A stretch of DNA of 64,000 nt from Octopus vulgaris (Eukaryota), in NCBI GenBank assembly GCA_951406725.2, contig OX597832.1, forward strand, positions 63,798,001 to 63,862,000, given 5' to 3'. The position numbers were made by a program, and so were the translations under genes. Under the pieces are notes generated by a model, which was not told where the DNA came from, made no database searches, and was given only the letters and a program-made list of their open reading frames with translations. The stretch's first letter is position 1. Each line of letters opens with the position of its first letter. Positions 2,523-59,514 of the stretch are shown piece after piece.

Positions 2523-5143
2523 AATGGCACCCGTCAATGCTCTCTAAGAGTTAAGAAATTAGAAGAGGCACTTAGAACTGGCATCGCGTCCAACGTACTG
2601 GCAGCGAGGTTGGCCCTCGACCAACACCTCAACGCCAAACACGAAGGAATCGTTGTCAGAGCTAGGATGCGTACTCTGAGGAGTTGGAGTCACCCGAGAG
2701 GCCCGAGTGGCGGAGGTACAACGAGGCAACAGAGCCACCATTAGGTCACTTACAGATGAACAGGGGCGCGAATTACTCGAGCCCGAAAGGATATGTGTGG
2801 CCTTTCAACAACACTTTGCCCGACTGTTTGGGACAACTGGTGGGTCAGAACGCAGAGTGACTTTAGTGCCTACCTGCATAGCCTGCCACGACTCTCACCA
2901 AGTGAGGCGGAGTGTTGTGAAAGACCCATCACAGCCGCGGACGTGCGGGATGCGATGACAGGCTGCGCGAGAGAGAAGTCACAGGCTTGGATGGTCTGCC
3001 CTACAAACTTTATTGTTATATGCCAGACTTGTTTGGAGGCGTCTTGACAGCTGTCTACTGCAACTGGCAGCAAAACGGGAGTATCCCTGTTTTTGTAAAG
3101 CGAGGAGCAGTGGCACTGCTAAAGAAAGATCCAAACAAGGGGAACGTCATAGATAAATTCAGGCCCATCACTCTGCTCAACGCAGATTTGAAAATTTTGG
3201 CCAAGGGGGTTAGCCGAGAGGTTGGCGCTTGTCATCGAGAAACTAGTCGACAAGGCTCAAACGTGCACCGTGCCGGGTAGGAGTATCCATGACAACCTCC
3301 ATCTGATGTGCTACATCATAGACAAGGTAGTTAAGGATCCTGGCATGGGTGGGGCGCTGATCAATTTGGATTAATCAAAAGCCTTCGATAGAGTAGACCA
3401 TCACTACTTGGAGGCTGTCCTTATAGCGGCTGGTTTCGGTCCCATCTTCCGCGGTTGGATCGCAGCCTTATACAGCGGCATCCGCTCGGTACTTCGCGTA
3501 AATGGTCATCTATCCAGACCATTTAACATCATGCGTTCGGTTCGTCAAGGATGCCCCTCCTCATCGCTTCTGTATATATTGACTCTTGAGCCACTACTGC
3601 GGAAGCTGGCGACGATGAGGGGCATCCCACGAGAGCTAGGATGCGGGAGGAGCGTGTCTATATACGCGGACGACGTCACCGTCATAGTGTCGAGCCACAA
3701 GCACATCGACTGGTCGGTGAGACACTAAAAGAACTGGGACGAAATAACGACAGGGCCACTCTCACCCAGCAACGGGACGAGAGGAAGCTATCCCTAAAAG
3801 GTCGGGCGGAGGTAGTGAACGCGTACATCGTATCCGTTATTGAGTACCGTCTGACCGTCGTGCCTTGTCCCGACCCTACCATCACCAAACTGGAACGCAT
3901 ACTCTTCCGCTTCTTGTGGAAGGGAAGCGTTCCGATGGTTAGGAGATCCATTTGCTGTCAACACCCGCTAAATGGAGGGCTAGGCATGGCGAGGTTGATG
4001 ATGCGTAGACATGCGCTGATACTGCGACATTTTCGGCGCTTCATAGACGATGGTGAACAGCTGTGGTCGCCGTTTGGGCGGCGCGCTTTCCCGCAGCTCG
4101 TCTCCTTGGTCGACCTGCAGTCGTGGATCAAACAGAGACCGAGGCTAGGCGAATGGCACCGCGAGTGTCGCGTTGCCCTGAAGCTACTCTGCCGTCCGTT
4201 ACCAAACTTGTGCGACTTCATTACAACAAAGGTGTTCTATAGAGGATTAGTGGAGGGGCGGTGTGACGACGTTCTCGGGCAGAATCTGGGCGTCGACGAG
4301 GAACACCTGACCCGCCTATTGAGGACAACTTTCGGGCCGGGACCTATGGACAAACACCAAAGATCCCTGGCCTGGCAGTGCTATCGAGAAGCATTACTTG
4401 TTCGGGATAAGCTCTATAGGCACGGTTCGAGACACACCGGGCCGACTTGCCCAAGATGCGGTCAGAGCGACGAAACCGTTCTGCACGCACTTGAGCAGTG
4501 TCCAACCATTTCAGACCTGTGTGCTTATACCGAACAGCTGTTGTCACGTGTGGGACGAGTCCGCCTGTCGGCCGAGTCTATCGTGACTATTGCTCCTCCA
4601 CCTTCCCTCAACCAGGAAAGCAAAGCAGTCTTCGTCGTACTGGCGGCCATGGTGAAAGAATGCGTGTGGTGTACTCGAGCGAAAGGATTAGAGACAAACA
4701 CTTACCTATCTGGCCAATCGCTCAATTTTTTCAAGTACCACTTGAAAACGAAGGTGAGAATAGAGAGACAGGTTTTGTCACGTGAAAGCTTCAAAAAAAA
4801 AAAAAAAAGGTGGGTGAATGTAGCAAAGATGGTGCGTGCGAGCGACGAAACCACTTTGAGCATGATCGTGTAAATCGAAAAAAAGAGAGGGAGAGTTTTT
4901 TGCTCTCATGTGTTTATCCCTTTCTTTCCACGGATAAACCTAATCTTGCTTTTTACATTTTAAAAATTTCTTCTGTAATACACGATCCCTTTTGATCACC
5001 TTTTTTTTTTTACCCCGATCTCTTTTGATCGGAATTTTACTTTCTTTTCTGTTTTTTCCCCTTTTCTCTTTCATTTTCGAAAAGAAAAGCCCTACATTTG
5101 TATTTGTCCCCTCTGTTCAGCCCTGTGTGGCCAATAAAGAAAT
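2523..5143 (+). mobile_element. 5'-truncated, frameshifted Tx1/L1-clade non-LTR retrotransposon (ORF2 reverse transcriptase plus CCHC knuckle)
   Basis: RT motifs across frames: DGLPYKLY, FRPITLLNADLKILAK, D*SKAFDRVDH, SVRQGCP..LLY, YADD. C-terminal CPRCGQSDETVLHALEQC, stop at 4873, T-rich 3' UTR ending AATAAAGAAAT. Apparent internal deletion shortly after YADD. Confidence 0.93.
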
Positions 5144-11795: not shown

Positions 11796-12408
11796 AAGGC
11801 GGCGAACTGGCAGAAACGTTAGCACGCCGGGCGAAATGCGTAGCCGTATTTCGTCTGCCATTACGTTCTGAGTTCAAATTCTGCTGAGGTCGATTTTGCC
11901 TTTCATCCTTTCTGGGTCGATGAATTAAGTACCAGTTACGCACTGGGGTCGATATAATCGACTTAATCCGTTTGTCTATCTTTGTTTGTCCTCTCTGTGT
12001 TTAGCCCATTGTGGGTAGTAAAGAAATAGGTATTTCGTCTGCCGTTACATTCTGAGTTCAAATCCCGCCGAGGCCGACTTTGCCTGTCATCCTTTCGGGG
12101 TCGATAAATTAAGTACCAGCTACGCACTGGGGTCGATCTAATCGACTTAATCCGTTTGTCTGTCCTTGTTTGTCCCCTCTATGTTTAGCCTCTTGTGGGC
12201 AATAAACAAATAAGAAGCGTTAGCACGTCGGGCGAAATGCGTTGAAGTATTTCGTCTGCCGTTACGTTCTGAGTTCAAATTCCGCCGAGGTCAACTTTGC
12301 CTTTCATCCTTTCTGGGTCGATAAATTAAGTACCAGTTGCGTACTGGGGTCGATCTAATCGACTGGACCCCCCCCCAAATATCGGGCCTTGTGCCTAGAG
12401 TAGAAAAA
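11796..12408 (+). mobile_element. SINE family B, three-unit tandem array
   Basis: Head AAGGCGGCGARCTGGCAGAAACGTTAGC, B box GAGTTCAAATTC, repeated core GACTTTGCCTTTCATCCTTTCGGGGTCGATAAATTAAGTACCAG. Internal units end in the LINE-like tail; the last ends GGGCCTTGTGCCTAGAGTAGAAAA. Confidence 0.88.
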
Positions 12409-14211
12409 GGTGTGTGTGTGTGTATATGTGTTTCATTTCTCGATTGTCAATAGCGAATGACCAGTCTCTCACCTTGATCCATTGGAATTTTCACAACATG
12501 TTGTGCATGTTTGTGTGTACGTGTGCAAATATTTGGAGTCGGTCCAAGTGTAAATCTGTATGTTTTGTTTTATATGCATGTCTAGACTTATTCCTATGTA
12601 TTTATATGCTAAACTTGTACGTATGCTTACAATGGTGTATTGTAGATGTGGTATGTTGCCTTTCTCTTTTTCACTTCACGGTAGGTGTTGGCTTGTAACA
12701 AGGAAACGAAGACACATCATTAAAATTTAACAAAAAACATCAGTGAAAACATGAAATGAAATCTTTTTCTCTTCAAATTATGCATATTTTGACTGTTGTT
12801 TTTATAGATTTAATAAGCAACATACATGATGGTAGCTGGTCAATTTCTTTACCTGAAATCAACAGCTTTTAAAGATGGCCACTTAGACGCGTAGCGAGAA
12901 TGTTCAACAGCCAGATCACTTTTTCAACATAAGACAGCACTGCATTGTGAACGAAAACATCTGATAGTACTATGCAATCTAACCCAAATTTTTAATCTTG
13001 CATTTACCCTTTTCTAATGCATGCTTCTTTTATGCACTTCACGTCTGCAGTTCCTGCACTTTCGTTCAATTCACCGTGAACGGAGTTTTGAGTCATGTAG
13101 GGGAGATGTTCAGTAATCAGATCACTACACCTGATGTCGCGATTCGCTAGAATATTACCCACATGACCAACAAAATCTGACCAATCACGACTTCCCATAG
13201 AACTGGCTCCATCAACAATATCATATTTGCGCGCTTTTCTCTCTGAGCCTGTTTATTTAGCACACCTTAACTACTTGACAGACAGCATTGACAGATACCA
13301 TAAGAGGGCCAACAGAGATGACCGAACGATTGGTGACTAAAACACAACGACCAGCTGTTACTACAACTGCGCCAGTATCGTTAACATCCCAAACTCCCTC
13401 GATGTGTTGTCGTTCGTAGTAACGATAGTATTTGCTTTTTGTTTTTACGGGGAGAATAAAATATTGTTTATCAAAAATTTCAACAGATCTCGTCTTCTCC
13501 TTCGTAAACTCAGGTGCTGCCCCAAGTAACTCCGACTCGGAGTTGTAGCATACATGTCAGGGGCTCAGCTTTCGGTTAATTAGCATATAAGGGTTTGCCT
13601 ACCTCTACATATAAAGACTGGAACCGGTGTACTCTGCTGAAGAAACTTTAATGGTTCAACAGAAAGGAAGGCGTCTGCAGCAACGCATTACGAGGTGCAG
13701 AGAGCAAGATGAAGCAGTTAAGATATCTTGGTCGTCCACTGTATCCGTCTTCATCCCTAGTCGTCTTGATCCGGTCTTGCCACTGGACTGAAGATGGACA
13801 GAGGAGAGAGTGTATGTATGTAGACAGATATGTCAACGCAGCTTGGTTGAATGGTTAAAAAGATCCTTTCGATCACGGATTCGCAGTTTCAATCCCACTA
13901 CTAGTATCTTGGTTAAGAATTTTTTTATTTTATTGCATCCTCGACTCGACTCGTGCTATGCGAGTGAAATTAGGTAGAGGGAAACTGTGAAGAAGTCTTC
14001 CACTGGATTGTACTCATAATTCAATGGTCTATCCTTGTCGTACACCGCGTCACGCTGCTTCTGCTTGAGGATTACTTTAAGAGTACACATGTCTTTAGAG
14101 TACTCAGCCACATCACATGCTAATTCAATGAACAGCTGAGAGTTCAGTTAAGTGAACAACTGAATACTCACATGGTCGAAACCGACGGAGATCCACTGTA
14201 TGCCTTTTTTT

Positions 14212-14571
14212 CTCACTTGTTTCCGTCATTGGACTCTGGCCATGCTGGGGCACCGGCTTGAAAGGTTTCGAACAAATCGATCCCAGTATTTGTTAAGTAT
14301 ATAACTTATTCTGTCGGACACCTTTTACTGAACCGCTGTTTTGTCGGGGACGTAAACAAACCAACACTAATTGTTAAGCTAAGGGGGAACAGACACCCAC
14401 ATAAGGAAAATCGACGGGCTTCCGCACAGTTTTCGTTTACCAAATTCTTTCATAGGGCATTGATCAGTCCGGGGCTTTTGTAGCACTTTCCCTAGGTACT
14501 GCGTAGTTGGTTTGAACCCCAAAAGGTGTAGTTTCAAACCGAACGCCTTAACCACACAGCTATGTCTGCGC
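14212..14571 (-). mobile_element. Diverged SINE family A copy
   Basis: Family A tail and head motifs. Confidence 0.7.
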
Positions 14572-15636
14572 CTACGCATGTATAGCGTTTAAGCTTTTGA
14601 TTGAACTAGCGAATATGCTTTAGGGGTCCGATCTCGTTTGACTACATGCAAAAGAGGGCGGCTACATGGTCTTGTATTTATGGCTCCCTAATTGGTGGAA
14701 ACCTTGTTGTTTTCCGCTGTAAACACCAAACCACGTGACCACTCGCTTTTGCGTCTTCCAGGAGAACAAACAAAATCGCGCCTGCTAAAACGTACTTGCG
14801 GGTTCAAATGATTACTCAGTTACTTTCTAGTCTAGATTTTTTTAACCAACCTCTATATCAGACTCGTGGCCCCTTTGATGGGTGGTGCACCCGACCACGA
14901 CCATTTTATATGTATCGTACTTTATTTCCAATTGCTCCTAACGTTTGTTCAACTGATTTAAAAATATTTTTCAATCACTGTCACCCCTTTTATCAAGCTG
15001 TTCCAAATGTTTACTTTTCATAAACCCCCTCCTTTTCTTGTTTGCATTTAGAGAAAAGAGGGGAGGAAGAGAAAAGAGTTTTATCATGTGCAATTGACAG
15101 TTGTGTTATCTATCCCTAGGTGAAGTGACGTCCGTCCTTCATATCTCTGAAAATGACCTGGTTAGCAGATTTACTCTTTGAGGGCCTTGAGTTAGCTTAT
15201 TTCGGCCAATTTCGGCATGAAATCTATGAATTACAGTGAGACTACGTAACAGCAGAGTCGGGTCCCGGCGGATCCCTTGCTTTCCGTGCAGCCCTCTTCT
15301 CTTTAGTTTCTCTAATCATTTCTGTTTCTGAGTACTGTACTCTAGAATACACAACACTACGTCAAAGTGAGCAATCTCGAGTGTGACGTTCCCAAGTTGA
15401 TTGTTCTAAGTTACACTATTTCAAGGTCGTCTTGAGAGGGTCTTTTGCATCACCCCTTTGGTTCACCACGTGACCGAGAGTCAAATGCTTATTCATGTTT
15501 AGACAGAGATGTTATGTATTGCACCCGAAAGCTGACCACCGTGGTATTTGAACTCAGAGTGCAAAGAGCTGGAACAGACACCTTAAAGCATTCTACCCAA
15601 CTTCCTAACCATGCTGTCAATTTGCAGCACCACATG

Positions 15637-15675
<39 letters not shown>

Positions 15676-15679
<4 letters not shown>

Positions 15680-16175
15680 GTACTAGGAGAATAAGAACGG
15701 AACGAAGCGAATACTACACAAGGAAAAATCCCCTTCATCTTCTCGTATTGTATTTTCTTGTACATGTATTTTTATCTTGTATTTTATTTTGTAGTTTTAT
15801 TTGTATCGTTTTTACGTCCTGTTTGTGTTACATTTTTTTCTTGTTTGTTTTTACCCCTCTGCGAGGTAATTTTATTTTAATTCTCTCGCAGGAAGGATTA
15901 ATTTGGCGAGTCGTGTTCTGTCTTGCCTTCGAAACACGCTGGAGTCGAACTAGTGACAGCTGATGAAGGGGATTTTTCCTTGTGTAGTATGTCCTGTACT
16001 CTGTTTTTCTGTTGTAAAAAAATGGTTTTTCCGTTTTCGTTTCTCGTTGAGTTCTACGTCTAGTTGTGGTGTCCTGTACTCACGTATATATATTTATATA
16101 TGCATGTATATATACATGTAGATGTAGGTACGTACATATATGTTTGTATGTATGCATATATTTTATTTATTACAC
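15676..16175 (+). mobile_element. Penelope-like terminal fragment in (TA)n, with an inverted partial copy at its 5' end
   Basis: About 15711-15739 is the reverse complement of 15962-15990. The tail is shared with 8273-8325 and resembles 6380-6480 (minus). Contains an HHR-like core. Confidence 0.55.
15912..15981 (+). ncRNA. Candidate non-circularly permuted hammerhead ribozyme
   Basis: CGUGU-U-CUGUC-uugccuuc-GAAA-CACG-(16 nt)-GACAG-CUGAUGA-aGGGG. Stem III ACACG/CGUGU, stem I CUGUC/GACAG, possible stem II GGGG/CUUC. Confidence 0.6.
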
Positions 16176-16247
16176 TATATATATATATATATATATATAT
16201 AAGAGATGACACCGGAAAACCCCAAATGTTATGTAATGAACTTCATC

Positions 16248-16328
16248 GGCTTACAGCTGTTTCTGCTTTTAGATGTGGTGGACTCTTAGTTGAGTACCAG
16301 GATATGATCCTATAACTTCATTGGAGCC
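16248..16328 (-). ncRNA. Degenerate type I hammerhead (PLE-type)
   Basis: GGCU-cCAAUGA...agca-GAAA-CAGCUG-UA-AGCC. The CUGA box is mutated; palindromic stem III and stem I are intact. Confidence 0.45.
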
Positions 16329-16923
16329 TTGAATATGAAGTGCACTTTATTTGGGGGAACTACATTTTCAGAACAGGCGTCGTGAGTGATAAATGTTGAT
16401 GGATATAGAAAGCAATATTTAACGAATGTGACACGGGTCTTCCAATTACGACGAAAACGTCTGGCAATTATATAGATGAAGTTTTGTGTAAATTAATGAA
16501 AAACAATAATTAATTGCTTATTAACATGGCTATTTATTAAGCTGATTATAATATTAATCGTTACAATATATAAAGATATATGCAGCTGCGTCGAATAGTG
16601 TACGTGTGCACAGATTGTTATTTGTTGATGCAGTGAAATAGTCTTTGGTTTCATGGTTCATCGTGGAATACTACTTAGTAATTTTGTTTCATCCCTGTGA
16701 TTGCTAGGGAAGAAAAACCATTGTAAAAGGAATGTCTGCAACTTGAGACAACAAGGAGTCTACCTTCGCACACTTTAATGAACAGAGTTGTTGATTAAAG
16801 AGTTATTGTGATACTAACAGAGTTGTTGTGATACTGACGGGAGTTGCTGTCTGTCCAGAGATGATTGACCCAAAAAGGGGAAGACAGCTATTTGCTTGTG
16901 CTTTTATAACTTGCTGACTGAAG

Positions 16924-17356
16924 TCGGTCGAGCGAAAAATAGGATTATTCGTCTCTAGTTTGAGCCGTAAATTCCCCGGAAATGTCTGAGAGGTCAGCCA
17001 ATTCTCATTAATCTCTCATTGCAGAAAAGCTAAAACAGAGAGTCGAAAACTTGTTTGACAATGTGGATTCCATTTCGAATCGTAGCTTATCTATTCTATA
17101 GCTGTTTGTTATATATATATATATAATCTCATATAATAAATGCAAAAACTAATTTCTGTGTGTCAGTGTGCCGCACTTTGATTCCCTCTTTCACTATTCA
17201 ATGACACTTCTACTATTCCTCGTGCTGGGGTGAGAGTAATAGTAGGGATAAAGACGACGAGGGTGGTGGCGAAGAGAAAGAGAGACAAAGAAATTTAGGG
17301 TGAGTTGACGATGTTTTATTAAGAGTAGTAGTGTTGATGGTGGCAGTGGGAATAAT

Positions 17357-31576: not shown

Positions 31577-32379
31577 AAAGGTGGCGAGCTGGCAGAAACG
31601 CTAGCATGCCGGGCGAAATGCTTAGCGGTATTTCGTCTGCCGCTACGTTCTGAATTCAAATTCCGCCGAGGTCGACTTTGCTTTTCATCCTTTCGAGGTT
31701 GATTAAACAAGTACCAGTTACGCACTGGGGTCGATGTAATCGACTTAATCCGTCTGTCTGTCCTTGTTTGTCTCCTCTGTGTTTAGCTCCTCGTGGGTAG
31801 TAAAGAAATAGGTATTTCGTCTGTTTTTACGTTTAGAGTTCAAATTCCACCGAGGCCGACTTTGCTTTTCATCCTTTCGGGGTCGGTTAAATAAGTACCA
31901 GTTACGCACTGGGGTCGATGTAATCGACTTAATCCCTTTGTCTGTCCTTGTTTGTCCCCTCCATGTTTAGCCCCTTGTGGGCAATAAAGAAATAAGGAAC
32001 GTTAGCACGCCGGGCGAAATGCTTAGCGGTATTTCGTCTGCGTTACGTTGTGAGTTCAAATTCCGCCGAGGTCGACTTTGCCTTTCATCCTTTCGGGGTC
32101 GATAAATTAAGTACCAGTTACGCACTGGGGTCGATGTAATCGACTTAATACCTATGTCTGTCCTTGTTTGTCCCCTCTGTGTTTAGCCCCTTGTGGGTAA
32201 TAAAGAAATAGGTATATCGTCTGTTTTTACGTTCTGAGTTCAAATTCCGCCGAGGTCGACTTTGCCTTTCATCCTTTCGGGGTCGATAAATTAAGTACCA
32301 GTTGCGTATTGTGGTTCGATCTAATCGACTGGCCTCCCTCCCACAAAATTTCGGGCCTTGTGCCTAGAGTAGAGAAGAA
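31577..32379 (+). mobile_element. SINE family B, four-unit tandem array
   Basis: Same units as 11796-12408. Confidence 0.9.
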
Positions 32380-55610: not shown

Positions 55611-55694
55611 ATTCGAGACAAAACCACTATTTTAAAACCAAACAAGGAAAGACTTAATCAATACATAAAATTTTAATATAAATTAAATAAACCG

Positions 55695-55738
55695 CCACTA
55701 CAATTGTTTCATGTCTGCTACCGACATTCTTCAGGTGG
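55695..55738 (-). ncRNA. Minimal type I hammerhead ribozyme (PLE-type, intact core)
   Basis: CCAC-CUGAAGA-AUGUC-gguagca-GACAU-GAAA-CAAUUG-UA-GUGG: all three stems pair, stem III palindromic. Confidence 0.85.
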
Positions 55739-56349
55739 ATTTTCGATCTAAAAATATCAATATTTTAAAATATAATTTAAAATAATTTAAAATAATAAAA
55801 TAATAAAATTATCAATGAAAGAATATATATATAACTTCGAATCTGAGTCAATAATGTAACTAAAAGTGAAATATGAAACAGCTGTAAGCATAGGAAATTG
55901 AATATTTTTTCTTTTGCCTCTCACTTCTGGATTTTAAATTACATCTTAAATTTATTGTTACATGATAGCAGTTGGAGTGCTATTACGAGCTACTTTTGAT
56001 TTTCCGAATCGTGTGCGTGCGTATTAATCTTCTTCTGTGGAGTTAAGATTAAATCATTTGCTTTTTCTCTGGACAGAAAGAAAGTCTATCGTAAATTGAG
56101 GTTAACGTCAGAAGTCACACTGAGGAATTTGCCGTAGGAAATCCCGAAATTTATTGTTTAGATCTGCAAGAATTATTCTCAATATCAAACCTTATTTTTC
56201 AAGTGTATATGAATATGAGCATATGTATATGTGTGTAGATGTTTATGCACATATTGGGTGTATGGATATGTATATGTATGTGGTTGTATATATGTGTGTG
56301 TATATATATGTATATATATATATATATTGGTATACGTATATCTGTATAT

Positions 56350-57227: not shown

Positions 57228-57504
57228 GTCTCGTACCTGTGTGTGTGGTAAAAATCAATGGACTTCCGTCGGTTTCGTTGATGACTGTGTTCAATCAACT
57301 GGACTAGCTATTCATAGAACTGAGAGTAGCTGAGTATACCAGTCTTCGATTTGGTTGAACGGACTGCATTGATTTAATATCGACTCCTTGCACCCAATGG
57401 TAGTCTCTCGCAGTCCGAGAAAGACGCCCCCTAAATTCCTTACTGGACAAACTGCACGAATGATTTGTTTATAGTGATCAAATGCTTGTGCCGAAGAGTA
57501 GTGA

Positions 57505-57825
57505 AGGCGCGTGGCTTACTGGTTAGGACATTCGGCTCACGATCGAAAGGTCGTGAGTTCAATACCCAGCAATGTGTTGTGTCCTTGAGCAAGACACTTT
57601 ATTTCCCGTTACTCCAGTCCTCTCAGCTGGCAAAAGTGAGTTGTACCTGTATTTCAAAGGGGCCAGCCTTGTCATACTCTGTGTCACGTTGAATCTCTCT
57701 GATAACTGCGTTAAGGGTACACGTGTCTGTGAGTCACTTGCACATTAATTTCACTAATTTCACGAGCAAGCTGTTCCGTTGATCGTATCAGCTTGGACTG
57801 TCGTCGTCGTAACCGACGGAGTGCT
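57505..57825 (+). mobile_element. SINE family C copy
   Basis: tRNA-like head, TGTGTCCTTGAGCAAGACACTTTATTTC central motif. Confidence 0.75.
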
Positions 57826-58479
57826 GAACAGTAACTCACTCACACTCCATCAGATCGACTTTTGCTGAACATGTGATCCCGGAGCAGCGTGAGATTAAGT
57901 GTTTTACTCCAGAACAGAATGCACCACCCGGTCTAGGAATTGAAATCACGATCTCGCAATCGGGAGTGCAACATCCCTAACCACTACGCCATTCGCTCCT
58001 CACTGCGAAGTTTGTAGGTATACCAAAACATATTTTATGTAACGCAATGCAGATCCCTTTCAGACTGGGATAACTGGAGGATATTTTGAGAGTGGGTTAA
58101 CTGAGGGTATTTTGGAGAGTGGTCTGGCCGTAGAGGCTATTCGAAGAGTTGGCTAACTGTGGAGGATGCGGTTTGAAGGCACGAAAATAAAGTCGTTCTT
58201 ACCTCTCGACTTGCAATTGAGTAAAGCCAGCAGATTGCTCAATTGTTAACACGCGTTCTCACGACCTCTCTTCGTCACGTCTGGCTTCTATCACAGACAG
58301 ACTGAAAAAGAGCGAAACTTTTCTTCTGACTCGCCAACGTGACGTCATCTCTCTCCCTTTCCGGTCTTTCTTCCACCATAGAGGATAACTGGAGAGTAGG
58401 TTAGCCGTAGAAGATATCTTGGAGATTATTTACATTATTCACATTTGACGTATGTTTGTCCTCACCTTGTTTTGTTGTT

Positions 58480-58524
58480 AACACAACGTTTCAGCTGATA
58501 TGCTCTCCTCCTTCATCAGGTGTC
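58480..58524 (-). ncRNA. Minimal type I hammerhead, stem II degenerate
   Basis: GACAC-CUGAUGA-aggaggagagcauaucagcu-GAAA-CGUU-GUGUU. Confidence 0.55.
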
Positions 58525-58571
58525 TTGGGGAAATTTTAAACCTGGGTTCTCATTCCTAAAGTACTTTTCGA

Positions 58572-58637
<66 letters not shown>

Positions 58638-58734
58638 CATTCAGGTCACTGCCTGGAATCGAACTCGGAATCTTGGGGTTAGTAGTCCGCGCTCTTAACC
58701 ACTACGCCATATACCCGTGGTTAAGAGCACCATA

Positions 58735-58789
58735 TGGCATAGTGGTTAAGAGCGCGGGCTACTAACACCAAAATTCCGAGTTCGATTCC
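58735..58789 (+). promoter_or_regulatory. Pol III type 2 internal promoter (A box 58735-58745, B box 58780-58789) in a tRNA-derived head
   Basis: TGGCATAGTGG and GTTCGATTCC; mirror copy at 58655-58709 on the minus strand. Confidence 0.8.
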
Positions 58790-58868
58790 AGGCAGTGACC
58801 TGAATAATAATAATAATGACATCGGAAAATACCTTAGAAATGAGAATCCAGGTTCGAAATTTCCCCAA

Positions 58869-58914
58869 GACACCTGATGAAGGCTGGAAAGTATATCAGC
58901 CGAAACGTTGTGTT
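58869..58914 (+). ncRNA. Minimal type I hammerhead ribozyme
   Basis: GACAC-CUGAUGA-a-GGCUG-gaaaguauau-CAGCC-GAAA-CGUU-GUGUU. Stem I GACAC/GUGUU, stem II GGCUG/CAGCC, palindromic AACGUU stem III. Confidence 0.82.
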
Positions 58915-59514
58915 AACAACAAACAAGGTGAGGACAAACATACGTCAAATGTAAATAATGTAAATAATTCCTCATCTCTAAAATATAGAACTGTAATATC
59001 TTGGAGAGTGGGCTAACTGTGGAGTGTATTTCCTCGTATGAGCCCAATTTCTTCTATATATATATGTGGATGCATGACTGGGTGTGCGCGACTATGTGTT
59101 TGTGTGTGTGTGCAAATCTGTGGGTGATATGCGTGGGTGTATGTGTGTGTGTGAGATCTCGGTAAAGTGCTTCTCTGGTTTACAATTCCGTTATATGCTC
59201 CAGAGACTCGTAAAATTTTACGCACAAACATTATTGCATTCATATATTCATGTCCCCAGATAAGCTTTGTCTTTACTCATTTCTTTACACTCAATCAAAT
59301 ACACACACGCACAACTATTCGCTTAAAAACATACAGAAACGAGCACACACACATTTTGACACAGACCGTTACACGCAAACATACATTCATATACATATTG
59401 TCGTGACTCTTTCATATCTCACGAAACTCCACATTTTCACACACACACTATATATATATATAGATATATATATATAGATATATATATATAGATGTATATA
59501 TATATATATAGATG

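What the first reader, a model, noticed from the sequence alone, without database searches (positions are those of the whole stretch)
58426..58995. tRNA-promoter SINE fused to a hammerhead ribozyme, inserted as a head-to-head inverted dimer: candidate Penelope-dependent ribozyme SINE
Seen: each arm has a tRNA-like head with consensus A and B boxes (anticodon-like loop CTACTAA, reminiscent of tRNA-Ser), a (TAA)n spacer, then a minimal type I HHR with a palindromic AACGUU stem III. No TTTT terminator lies between head and ribozyme on either transcribed strand. The arms diverge from a 14-nt spacer that repeats part of the head (GTGGTTAAGAGC). ATATCTTGGAGA flanks both sides, though the flank is a degenerate minisatellite, so the TSD call is tentative. 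Established: minimal HHRs with palindromic stem III and inverted terminal copies are hallmarks of Penelope-like elements, whereas classical SINEs borrow LINE tails. Inference: a Pol III-transcribed, self-cleaving, non-autonomous retroelement mobilised by a PLE reverse transcriptase, in which the ribozyme rather than a terminator or poly(A) defines the RNA end.
Basis: partly seen in the sequence, partly recalled or inferred. Interest (0 to 1): 0.9.

Follow-up and report, generated by a model that had tools for sequence, protein, structure and literature searches.

The report
Penelope retrotransposon with tRNA-derived promoter
This is a head-to-head pair of short end-pieces of a common Penelope-type jumping gene that carries a tRNA-derived promoter sequence in its own terminal repeat and is likely copied into RNA by the polymerase that normally makes tRNAs, which would be unusual for a protein-coding jumping gene.

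Summary
Head, (TAA)n and hammerhead together form the pseudo-LTR of a ~2.6-kb Penelope/Poseidon element (RT + GIY-YIG). The head follows the ORF stop in 29 of 30 endonuclease-anchored loci, and the ribozyme overlaps the ORF's first codons. The inverted dimer, one arm 27 nt longer, and the 12-bp TSD are family-wide, known PLE behaviour. Copy ends lie 59 and 86 nt past the cleavage site, so the ribozyme does not define them. The head resembles tRNA-Arg(ACG), not Ser, and the left ribozyme is broken. What is unusual: an ORF-bearing PLE with A/B boxes as its pLTR. Most copies stop at tRNA +1, a 5- to 10-fold copy-number step. The whole unit lacks sense-strand TTTT, against 1 of 61 control PLE ORFs, and 0 of 20 control pLTRs have such a head. 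Best reading: a captured Pol III promoter, with reverse transcription starting inside the promoter-proximal pLTR, mass-produced over 10,000 SINE-like copies. Pol III use is inferred, not shown.

The parts
58414..58425 (.). left target-site duplication, 12 bp
   Evidence: identical at 58996-59007; family mode 12-13 bp
58426..58721 (-). left arm: inverted pLTR copy, head -5 to the short 3' end (no tail)
58480..58524 (-). left minimal hammerhead; core intact, stem II broken, likely inactive
   Evidence: alignments
58551..58553 (-). predicted ORF start codon in left arm; frame stopped at codon 6
58572..58641 (-). (TAA)n spacer, about 23 units
58644..58716 (-). left tRNA-Arg(ACG)-like head; A box 58709-58699, B box 58664-58655
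58718..58730 (+). inversion junction: GTGG microhomology plus a patch copied from head +15 to +27
   Evidence: sequence; similar junctions
58731..58800 (+). right tRNA-Arg(ACG)-like head starting at head +4; A box 58735-58745, B box 58780-58789
58803..58819 (+). short (TAA)n spacer
58840..58995 (+). first 52 codons of the PLE ORF, open, running through the ribozyme; homologous to the N-terminus of full-length PLE protein P0003
   Evidence: E 3e-5, two-sequence comparison
58869..58914 (+). right minimal type I hammerhead: stem I 58869-73/58910-14, core 58874-80, stem II 58882-87/58896-901, palindromic stem III, predicted cut after 58909 (GUU)
   Evidence: same architecture in control PLE loci; cleavage untested
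58969..58995 (+). 27-nt PLE 'tail', present in only one arm of a pair
   Evidence: 79 of 86 pairs are long+short
58996..59007 (.). right target-site duplication

Best explanation
The locus is one insertion of two head-to-head pseudo-LTR pieces of a Penelope/Poseidon retrotransposon whose own pLTR holds a tRNA-Arg-like A/B-box head, likely used as an RNA polymerase III promoter. Shown: the monomer (~2.6 kb) is head - (TAA)n - ATG - hammerhead - tail - rest of ORF (RT, GIY-YIG) - stop - about 30 nt - next head. Shown: most copies end at head +1, have two 3' end classes 27 nt apart, and carry 12-13 bp TSDs. Inferred mechanism: (1) Pol III starts at about head -6 to +1 of a partial-tandem source copy and, meeting no TTTT, can run through the ORF into the next pLTR. 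(2) The PLE endonuclease makes a staggered double nick. (3) Each 3'-OH primes reverse transcription at one of two internal start sites downstream of the ribozyme, as shown in vitro for the anole PLE. (4) Priming in the promoter-proximal pLTR runs off the RNA's 5' end after only 240-270 nt and gives the SINE-like copies; priming in the downstream pLTR gives the rarer ORF-containing copies. (5) The two cDNAs are joined at their head ends by microhomology, giving the inverted dimer. The ribozyme is uncleaved in the templates that were copied.
For: The head follows the EN stop in 29 of 30 EN-anchored loci (one is the query's own locus) and 16 of 18 RT-anchored loci. The tail continues in frame into the ORF. 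Tandems L140 and L142, and copies that start at head +1 and run into the ORF (L134, L152), occur; L149+L389 is a whole monomer plus its 3' pLTR. RVT_1 hit; the C-terminus aligns to the GIY-YIG region of P0069. Of 58 arms reaching head +12, 45 stop at -20..+12 and 13 continue: stop rate 0.045/nt against 0.004/nt inside the head. Exact-match counts genome-wide: head 20-mer 5148, 20-mer at -44 1038, at -486 374, controls 0, although the upstream words are better conserved. Copies with no inverted arm also start there. Zero TTTT on the sense strand of the 2.4-kb majority ORF and in 7 of 12 decayed natural copies, against 1 of 61 control PLE ORFs of 1.5 kb or more. 20 of 21 control pLTRs contain TTTT and 0 of 20 have a tRNA-like head. 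Loose ends of RNA-seq reads fall at head -7 and at both 3' ends.
Against: No direct evidence of Pol III use. The family looks dead: non-CpG divergence is 4-5%, and no full ORF appeared among the 131 and 54 candidates scored. RNA-seq reads lie about 1:1 on both strands with no pile-up of molecule starts, which fits read-through of genomic copies; library strandedness is unknown and the runs carry a species label that may differ from the window's. A short palindrome sits at head -7..+5, and palindromic pLTR 5' ends are known without tRNA heads (PMC3846280). TTTT absence is only P=0.05 against a codon-usage shuffle (P=0.002 against a composition null), and GGGG is absent too, though GGGG absence is common in controls (17 of 61). 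How an uncapped Pol III RNA would be translated is unexplained. Controls are 28-50% identical to P0003 and come from other organisms, so they are distant.
Confidence: 0.68

Rival explanations
1. Same PLE anatomy, but the head is a passive old tRNA or SINE insertion. RNA comes from Pol II read-through, and the 5' pile-up is caused by the palindrome at head -7..+5 (RT stop or fold-back) or by RNase P-like cutting of the tRNA-like fold.
For: The palindrome is present and is used at many inversion junctions. Palindromic pLTR ends are described in rotifer PLEs (PMC3846280, passages). RNA-seq shows no strand bias.
Against: Copies without an inverted arm stop at the same place. The stem is only 4 bp. 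The head does not fold better than shuffles (z 0.3) and its acceptor and T stems are degenerate while the A and B boxes match consensus. This rival does not explain the TTTT-free unit.
Confidence: 0.17
2. One reading: the short head+ribozyme copies are a self-propagating SINE lineage, transcribed by Pol III from their own boxes and mobilised in trans by the parent PLE.
For: Short copies outnumber ORF-linked ones 5- to 10-fold and each carries an internal promoter. One variant differs in frequency between ORF-linked and short copies (11 of 38 against 7 of 112, P=6e-4). Arms of a pair share private variants more than chance (28 of 86 against 12%; the window pair shares 4), so there were several source copies.
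Against: No variant above 8% is confined to short copies, and divergence is the same (4.8% against 4.2%). The head is part of the ORF-bearing element. The anole PLE needs ORF RNA to +172, beyond its RT start sites (PMC11167929), whereas these copies end at ORF +156 or earlier; transfer of that rule to this family is an inference.
Confidence: 0.12
3. Retrozyme-like cycle: ribozyme cleavage sets the RNA ends, and circular or cleaved monomers are the template.
For: The ribozyme core is intact in the right arm. The one free core position (N7) is the one that varies between subfamilies (21 of 139; linked to a head variant, P=0.003). Internally deleted tandem derivatives with two ribozymes exist (L128, L133, L135, L137).
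Against: Copy ends are 59 and 86 nt past the cut site and do not cluster at it. Copies are mostly solo or inverted, not head-to-tail. Cleavage was not needed for insertion in vitro in the anole PLE (PMC11167929).
Confidence: 0.03

Closest known systems
Penelope/Poseidon PLEs, e.g. PAc of Anolis (PMC11167929, parts 1-2 of 4 read) and Adineta Pen2 (PMC3846280, passages)
   Same: RT + C-terminal GIY-YIG ORF; pLTR overlapping the ORF start; hammerhead at the ORF start; optional ~30-nt tail; inverted 5' pLTR; short TSD; partial tandems.
   Different: The pLTR here holds a tRNA-derived A/B-box head (the rotifer pLTR is described with TATA and Inr-like motifs). The sense strand is TTTT-free. Most copies are pLTR-only and end at the head.
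Minimal PLE hammerheads (Cervera and de la Pena 2014, PMC4209133, parts 1-2 of 4 read)
   Same: CUGANGA core, extra nucleotide before stem II, short stem I, palindromic stem III; solo and opposite-strand pairs 100-700 bp apart are described.
   Different: No tRNA-like promoter next to the motif in the parts read.
Schistosoma Sm-alpha / Sj-alpha SINE-like elements (passages in PMC6765202, PMC2770079)
   Same: tRNA-derived (Gln) Pol III promoter and hammerhead in one short, high-copy repeat.
   Different: Sm-alpha is non-coding, works as head-to-tail multimers cut by the ribozyme, and no coding parent sharing the promoter is mentioned in the passages seen; here the parent PLE carries the promoter and cleavage does not set the ends.
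TRIMp3: Helenus, Ajax, Cassandra (PMC10886601, passages)
   Same: A small-RNA-derived Pol III promoter captured into a terminal repeat, proposed to come from a SINE insertion.
   Different: Those are non-autonomous LTR elements, and the author argues that their autonomous partners must use Pol II and not share the repeat. Here an ORF-bearing PLE has the promoter.
Animal non-LTR retrozymes (PMC7229834, passages; bioRxiv 10.64898/2026.07.22.740005, part 1 of 5 and passages)
   Same: Non-autonomous, type I hammerhead, PLE-related.
   Different: Retrozymes are tandem repeats with circular RNAs; the bioRxiv text has no 'tRNA' or 'Pol III'.

Membership tests
EN+ Penelope-like element (Penelope/Poseidon) | single ORF with RT and C-terminal GIY-YIG endonuclease | tested here: met
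   RVT_1 E 3e-6, just under the curated cut-off; no direct Pfam GIY-YIG hit, but 40% identity over 575 aa to P0069 including its GIY-YIG stretch; copies are decayed
EN+ Penelope-like element (Penelope/Poseidon) | pLTR by partial tandem, overlapping the ORF start | tested here: met
EN+ Penelope-like element (Penelope/Poseidon) | hammerhead in pLTR; inverted 5' copy; tail at one end; TSD | tested here: met
EN+ Penelope-like element (Penelope/Poseidon) | no extra Zn-finger linker between RT and EN (unlike Neptune/Nematis); placement in the clade by tree | tested here: inconclusive
   no extra Cys motif seen by eye in the L107 ORF; no tree with named reference elements was built
tRNA-derived SINE (SINE2) | tRNA-derived head with A and B boxes at the 5' end | tested here: met
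tRNA-derived SINE (SINE2) | head absent from the autonomous partner; only the 3' tail shared | tested here: not met
   head present after the ORF in 29 of 30 and 16 of 18 loci
tRNA-derived SINE (SINE2) | own lineage of short source copies | tested here: inconclusive
   variants shared with ORF-linked copies, one frequency difference
tRNA-derived SINE (SINE2) | transcribed by RNA polymerase III | not testable with these tools
   indirect only
non-LTR retrozyme | head-to-tail tandem of ribozyme-bearing monomers, ends set by cleavage | tested here: not met
   inverted or solo copies with ends 59 and 86 nt past the cut site
hammerhead ribozyme, minimal type I | self-cleavage | not testable with these tools
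   core and stems I-II intact in the right arm only

The most novel reading that the evidence does not exclude
An autonomous, protein-coding retrotransposon transcribed end to end by RNA polymerase III: after capturing a tRNA-Arg promoter into its pLTR, this Penelope lineage lost every TTTT terminator from a 2.6-kb unit, and internal RT initiation next to the start site made it produce its own SINE-like family in cis - a route to SINE-like repeats that needs no separate SINE.
Probability: 0.4. Interest if true: 0.85.

Novelty: new variant of a known kind. Interest (0 to 1): 0.62.

Why it matters
PLE promoters and replication are poorly understood. This family gives a sharp, sequence-marked candidate start site and over 10,000 arms. 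Their ends support, in a genome, a two-nick, two-start-site insertion: 79 of 86 inverted pairs are one long and one short arm, with 12-13 bp TSDs. If Pol III really transcribes the full unit, it would be a rare case of an ORF-bearing mobile element driven by Pol III, and it raises a testable question about translating an uncapped RNA. It also warns that some 'tRNA SINE' annotations in such genomes may be PLE pLTR fragments. The locus itself is one ordinary, decayed copy.

Tried and rejected
Rfam and ARAGORN found no tRNA or hammerhead at the locus; Rfam gave only below-threshold miRNA hits caused by hairpins and microsatellites. 'Chance nesting at one locus' is rejected. A separate SINE body behind the head was not seen: 24 of 30 head-anchored loci have the ribozyme region downstream, and the other 6 are truncated or run from (TAA)n into flank. 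tRNA-Ser origin is rejected (with the caveat on the comparison set). Run search: no RNA holder listed on record. A search for a second PLE family in G000 as an in-genome control returned top hits largely at places already known for this family, and the others were not fetched; controls were taken from metagenome contigs instead. The dimer fold could not be scored: the cofold gave a self-paired misfold and the hand-made dimer structure was not evaluable. The pair count used a misregistered structure string, and the left-arm fold used a mis-set window; neither is used. The A/B-box regex missed its positive control and was replaced by a profile search that passed two positive controls. No structure model was obtained. 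Counting T-runs in a paper's supplement was uninformative. The 'TAA' end class (32 arms) is inflated by my chaining limit and is not interpreted. Literature: ten searches listed no paper describing a PLE with a tRNA-derived promoter. Repbase, Dfam and the octopus repeat libraries were not available, one octopus genome paper was not held, the 1994 octopus SINE paper was seen only as a citation, and the GenBank-format supplement of PMC11167929 and bioRxiv supplements could not be read, so prior annotation cannot be excluded. Earlier scan findings: none.

Full report
Setting. The window lies in G000, 2.8 Gb in 227 contigs, and is rich in microsatellites. It is probably an octopus; this is inferred from size and repeat make-up and was not tested.

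Observation. Two diverging arms are present. Each has a tRNA-like head with T8, A14 and G53-T54-T55-C56 at tRNA spacing, then (TAA)n, then a minimal hammerhead. The right ribozyme is intact (stems I and II in the minimum-energy fold, z -2.7). The left has a broken stem II. The head matches this genome's tRNA-Arg(ACG) best among 11 classes for 3 of 3 heads (tRNAs); no true Ser tRNA was in the set. Rfam and ARAGORN do not detect either motif.

Family. The unit has 5172 first-look candidates, and the 40 scored are near full length. An exact ribozyme 26-mer occurs 4070 times and a head 20-mer 5148 times, with controls at 0. With exact-match fractions of 12 of 40 and 33 of 112 this suggests roughly 14,000-17,000 arms. 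The head is followed by the ribozyme region in 24 of 30 position-ordered loci. Non-CpG divergence is 4-5%.

It is the pLTR of a PLE. Three of the first 30 loci run 5' of the head into an endonuclease-like frame. Anchoring on that frame, 29 of 30 loci have the head about 30 nt after the stop; anchoring on RT, 16 of 18. The longest open frame examined (569 aa) hits RVT_1, aligns over the GIY-YIG region of P0069, and has homologs of up to about 850 aa. At the other end, the 'tail' continues in frame into the ORF N-terminus. The 52 codons in the right arm (58840-58995) align to the N-terminus of P0003. Tandems, copies that start at head +1 and enter the ORF, and a whole monomer with its 3' pLTR exist. 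The monomer is about 2.6 kb. No intact full ORF was among the candidates scored.

Insertion structure. I fetched 90 loci from the first 100 listed ribozyme matches (all on contig C1) and dropped 4 as second members of a pair. Of the 86, 52 have an inverted 5' arm. In a wider set of 86 de-duplicated pairs whose arms both reach the 3' end region, 79 have one long and one short 3' end, 6 are short/short and 1 is long/long; 55 have a junction repeat of 8 bp or more (control 4.6%), with a mode of 12-13 bp. The window's 12-bp TSD is therefore typical. The two end classes lie about 59 and 86 nt past the cleavage site. This matches published PLE features: tail, inverted pLTR and TSD (PMC3846280 and PMC8557442, passages), and two internal RT start sites with nicking of both strands and no need for ribozyme cleavage (PMC11167929, parts 1-2 of 4). 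Minimal ribozymes in pLTRs, including opposite-strand pairs, are described in PMC4209133 (parts 1-2 of 4).

What is unusual. (1) 5' ends pile up at the head start. Of 138 arms, 45 end at -20..+12, 13 run into the ORF, 19 end inside the head, 29 downstream of the spacer, and 32 in a poorly resolved (TAA)n class. The stop rate is about tenfold higher at the start than inside the head. Genome-wide counts fall from 5148 (head) to 1038 at -44 and 374 at -486: a raw 5-fold step, or about 8-10-fold after correcting for conservation, followed by only about 2-3-fold over the next 440 nt. (2) The sense strand has no TTTT in the 2.4-kb majority ORF built from 102 fragments; P is 0.05 against a codon-usage shuffle and 0.002 against a composition null. 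Among 80 control PLE loci, 1 of the 61 ORFs of 1.5 kb or more has none (median 3.7 per kb), whereas 7 of 12 decayed natural copies of this family have none. (3) Of the control loci with a ribozyme after the ORF, 20 of 21 have TTTT in that stretch, and 0 of 20 pLTR regions tested have a tRNA-like sequence, with 2 of 2 positive controls found.

Against and open. About 6% of three RNA-seq runs, plus one contig set, laid on L056 show the family on both strands equally and no pile-up of molecule starts; their loose ends repeat the genomic boundaries. This neither shows nor excludes past Pol III transcription. GGGG is also absent from the majority ORF. A 4-bp-stem palindrome coincides with the boundary. 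The controls are distant relatives. Short and ORF-linked copies share their variants and age, apart from one frequency difference, so an independent SINE lineage is not supported but not excluded.

Mechanism. Shown: anatomy, end classes, TSDs, copy-number step, TTTT absence. Inferred: Pol III initiation at the head; read-through into a downstream pLTR; staggered double nick; two cDNAs primed at the two start sites and joined by microhomology; short copies as run-off products of the promoter-proximal pLTR. Unknown: how the ORF was translated, and what the ribozyme does.

Comparison and verdict. The element is a member of the EN+ Penelope-like elements and works like a SINE source, but it fails the SINE test that the head be absent from the autonomous partner, and it fails the retrozyme test. 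A tRNA promoter with a hammerhead is known in Schistosoma Sm-alpha (passages), and Pol III promoters inside terminal repeats are known in non-autonomous TRIMs (passages). Ten searches listed no paper on an ORF-bearing PLE with such a promoter, and PMC13282606 has no 'hammerhead' in its text or held supplement; repeat databases were not checked. The A/B-box consensus, hammerhead numbering and the TTTT terminator rule are recalled knowledge. Verdict: new variant of a known kind, interest 0.62; 0.85 if full-length Pol III transcription is shown.

Noticed in passing
window about 55690-55740, minus strand: A second minimal-hammerhead-like motif (CUGAAGA core, stems I and II, palindromic stem III) in AT-rich sequence unrelated to this family; possibly a solo pLTR of another PLE.
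   Followed up: no
L128, L133, L135, L137: Internally deleted tandem derivatives: two independent loci each share the same breakpoint about 232 nt past the tail, joined back to the head (L128, L133) or into the ribozyme region (L135, L137); candidate non-autonomous subfamilies with two ribozymes.
   Followed up: partly
86 inverted pairs in G000: The two arms share private non-CpG variants more often than random arms (28 of 86 against 12%; two or more in 8 of 86 against 1%): same source copy, or conversion between arms.
   Followed up: partly
window 3641-4873 (+): 410-aa ORF with a weak zf-RVT hit, likely the C-terminal part of a LINE.
   Followed up: partly
window 57500-57750; 11846-12212; 31627-32210: Other SINE-like repeats: a tRNA-headed one at 57500 and 184-nt tandem units; family names not tested.
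   Followed up: no
window 58058-58162, 58385-58425, 58996-59022: The insertion landed in a degenerate ~27-nt minisatellite.
   Followed up: yes
coded runs X1-X20: The stretch is held (27-59% of sampled words) by runs under six organism labels, so the family may predate a species split; only X1 of these was laid.
   Followed up: no
G000:C2:211887730-211907126: Tandem array of tRNA-Arg(ACG)-type motifs, many about 206 bp apart.
   Followed up: no
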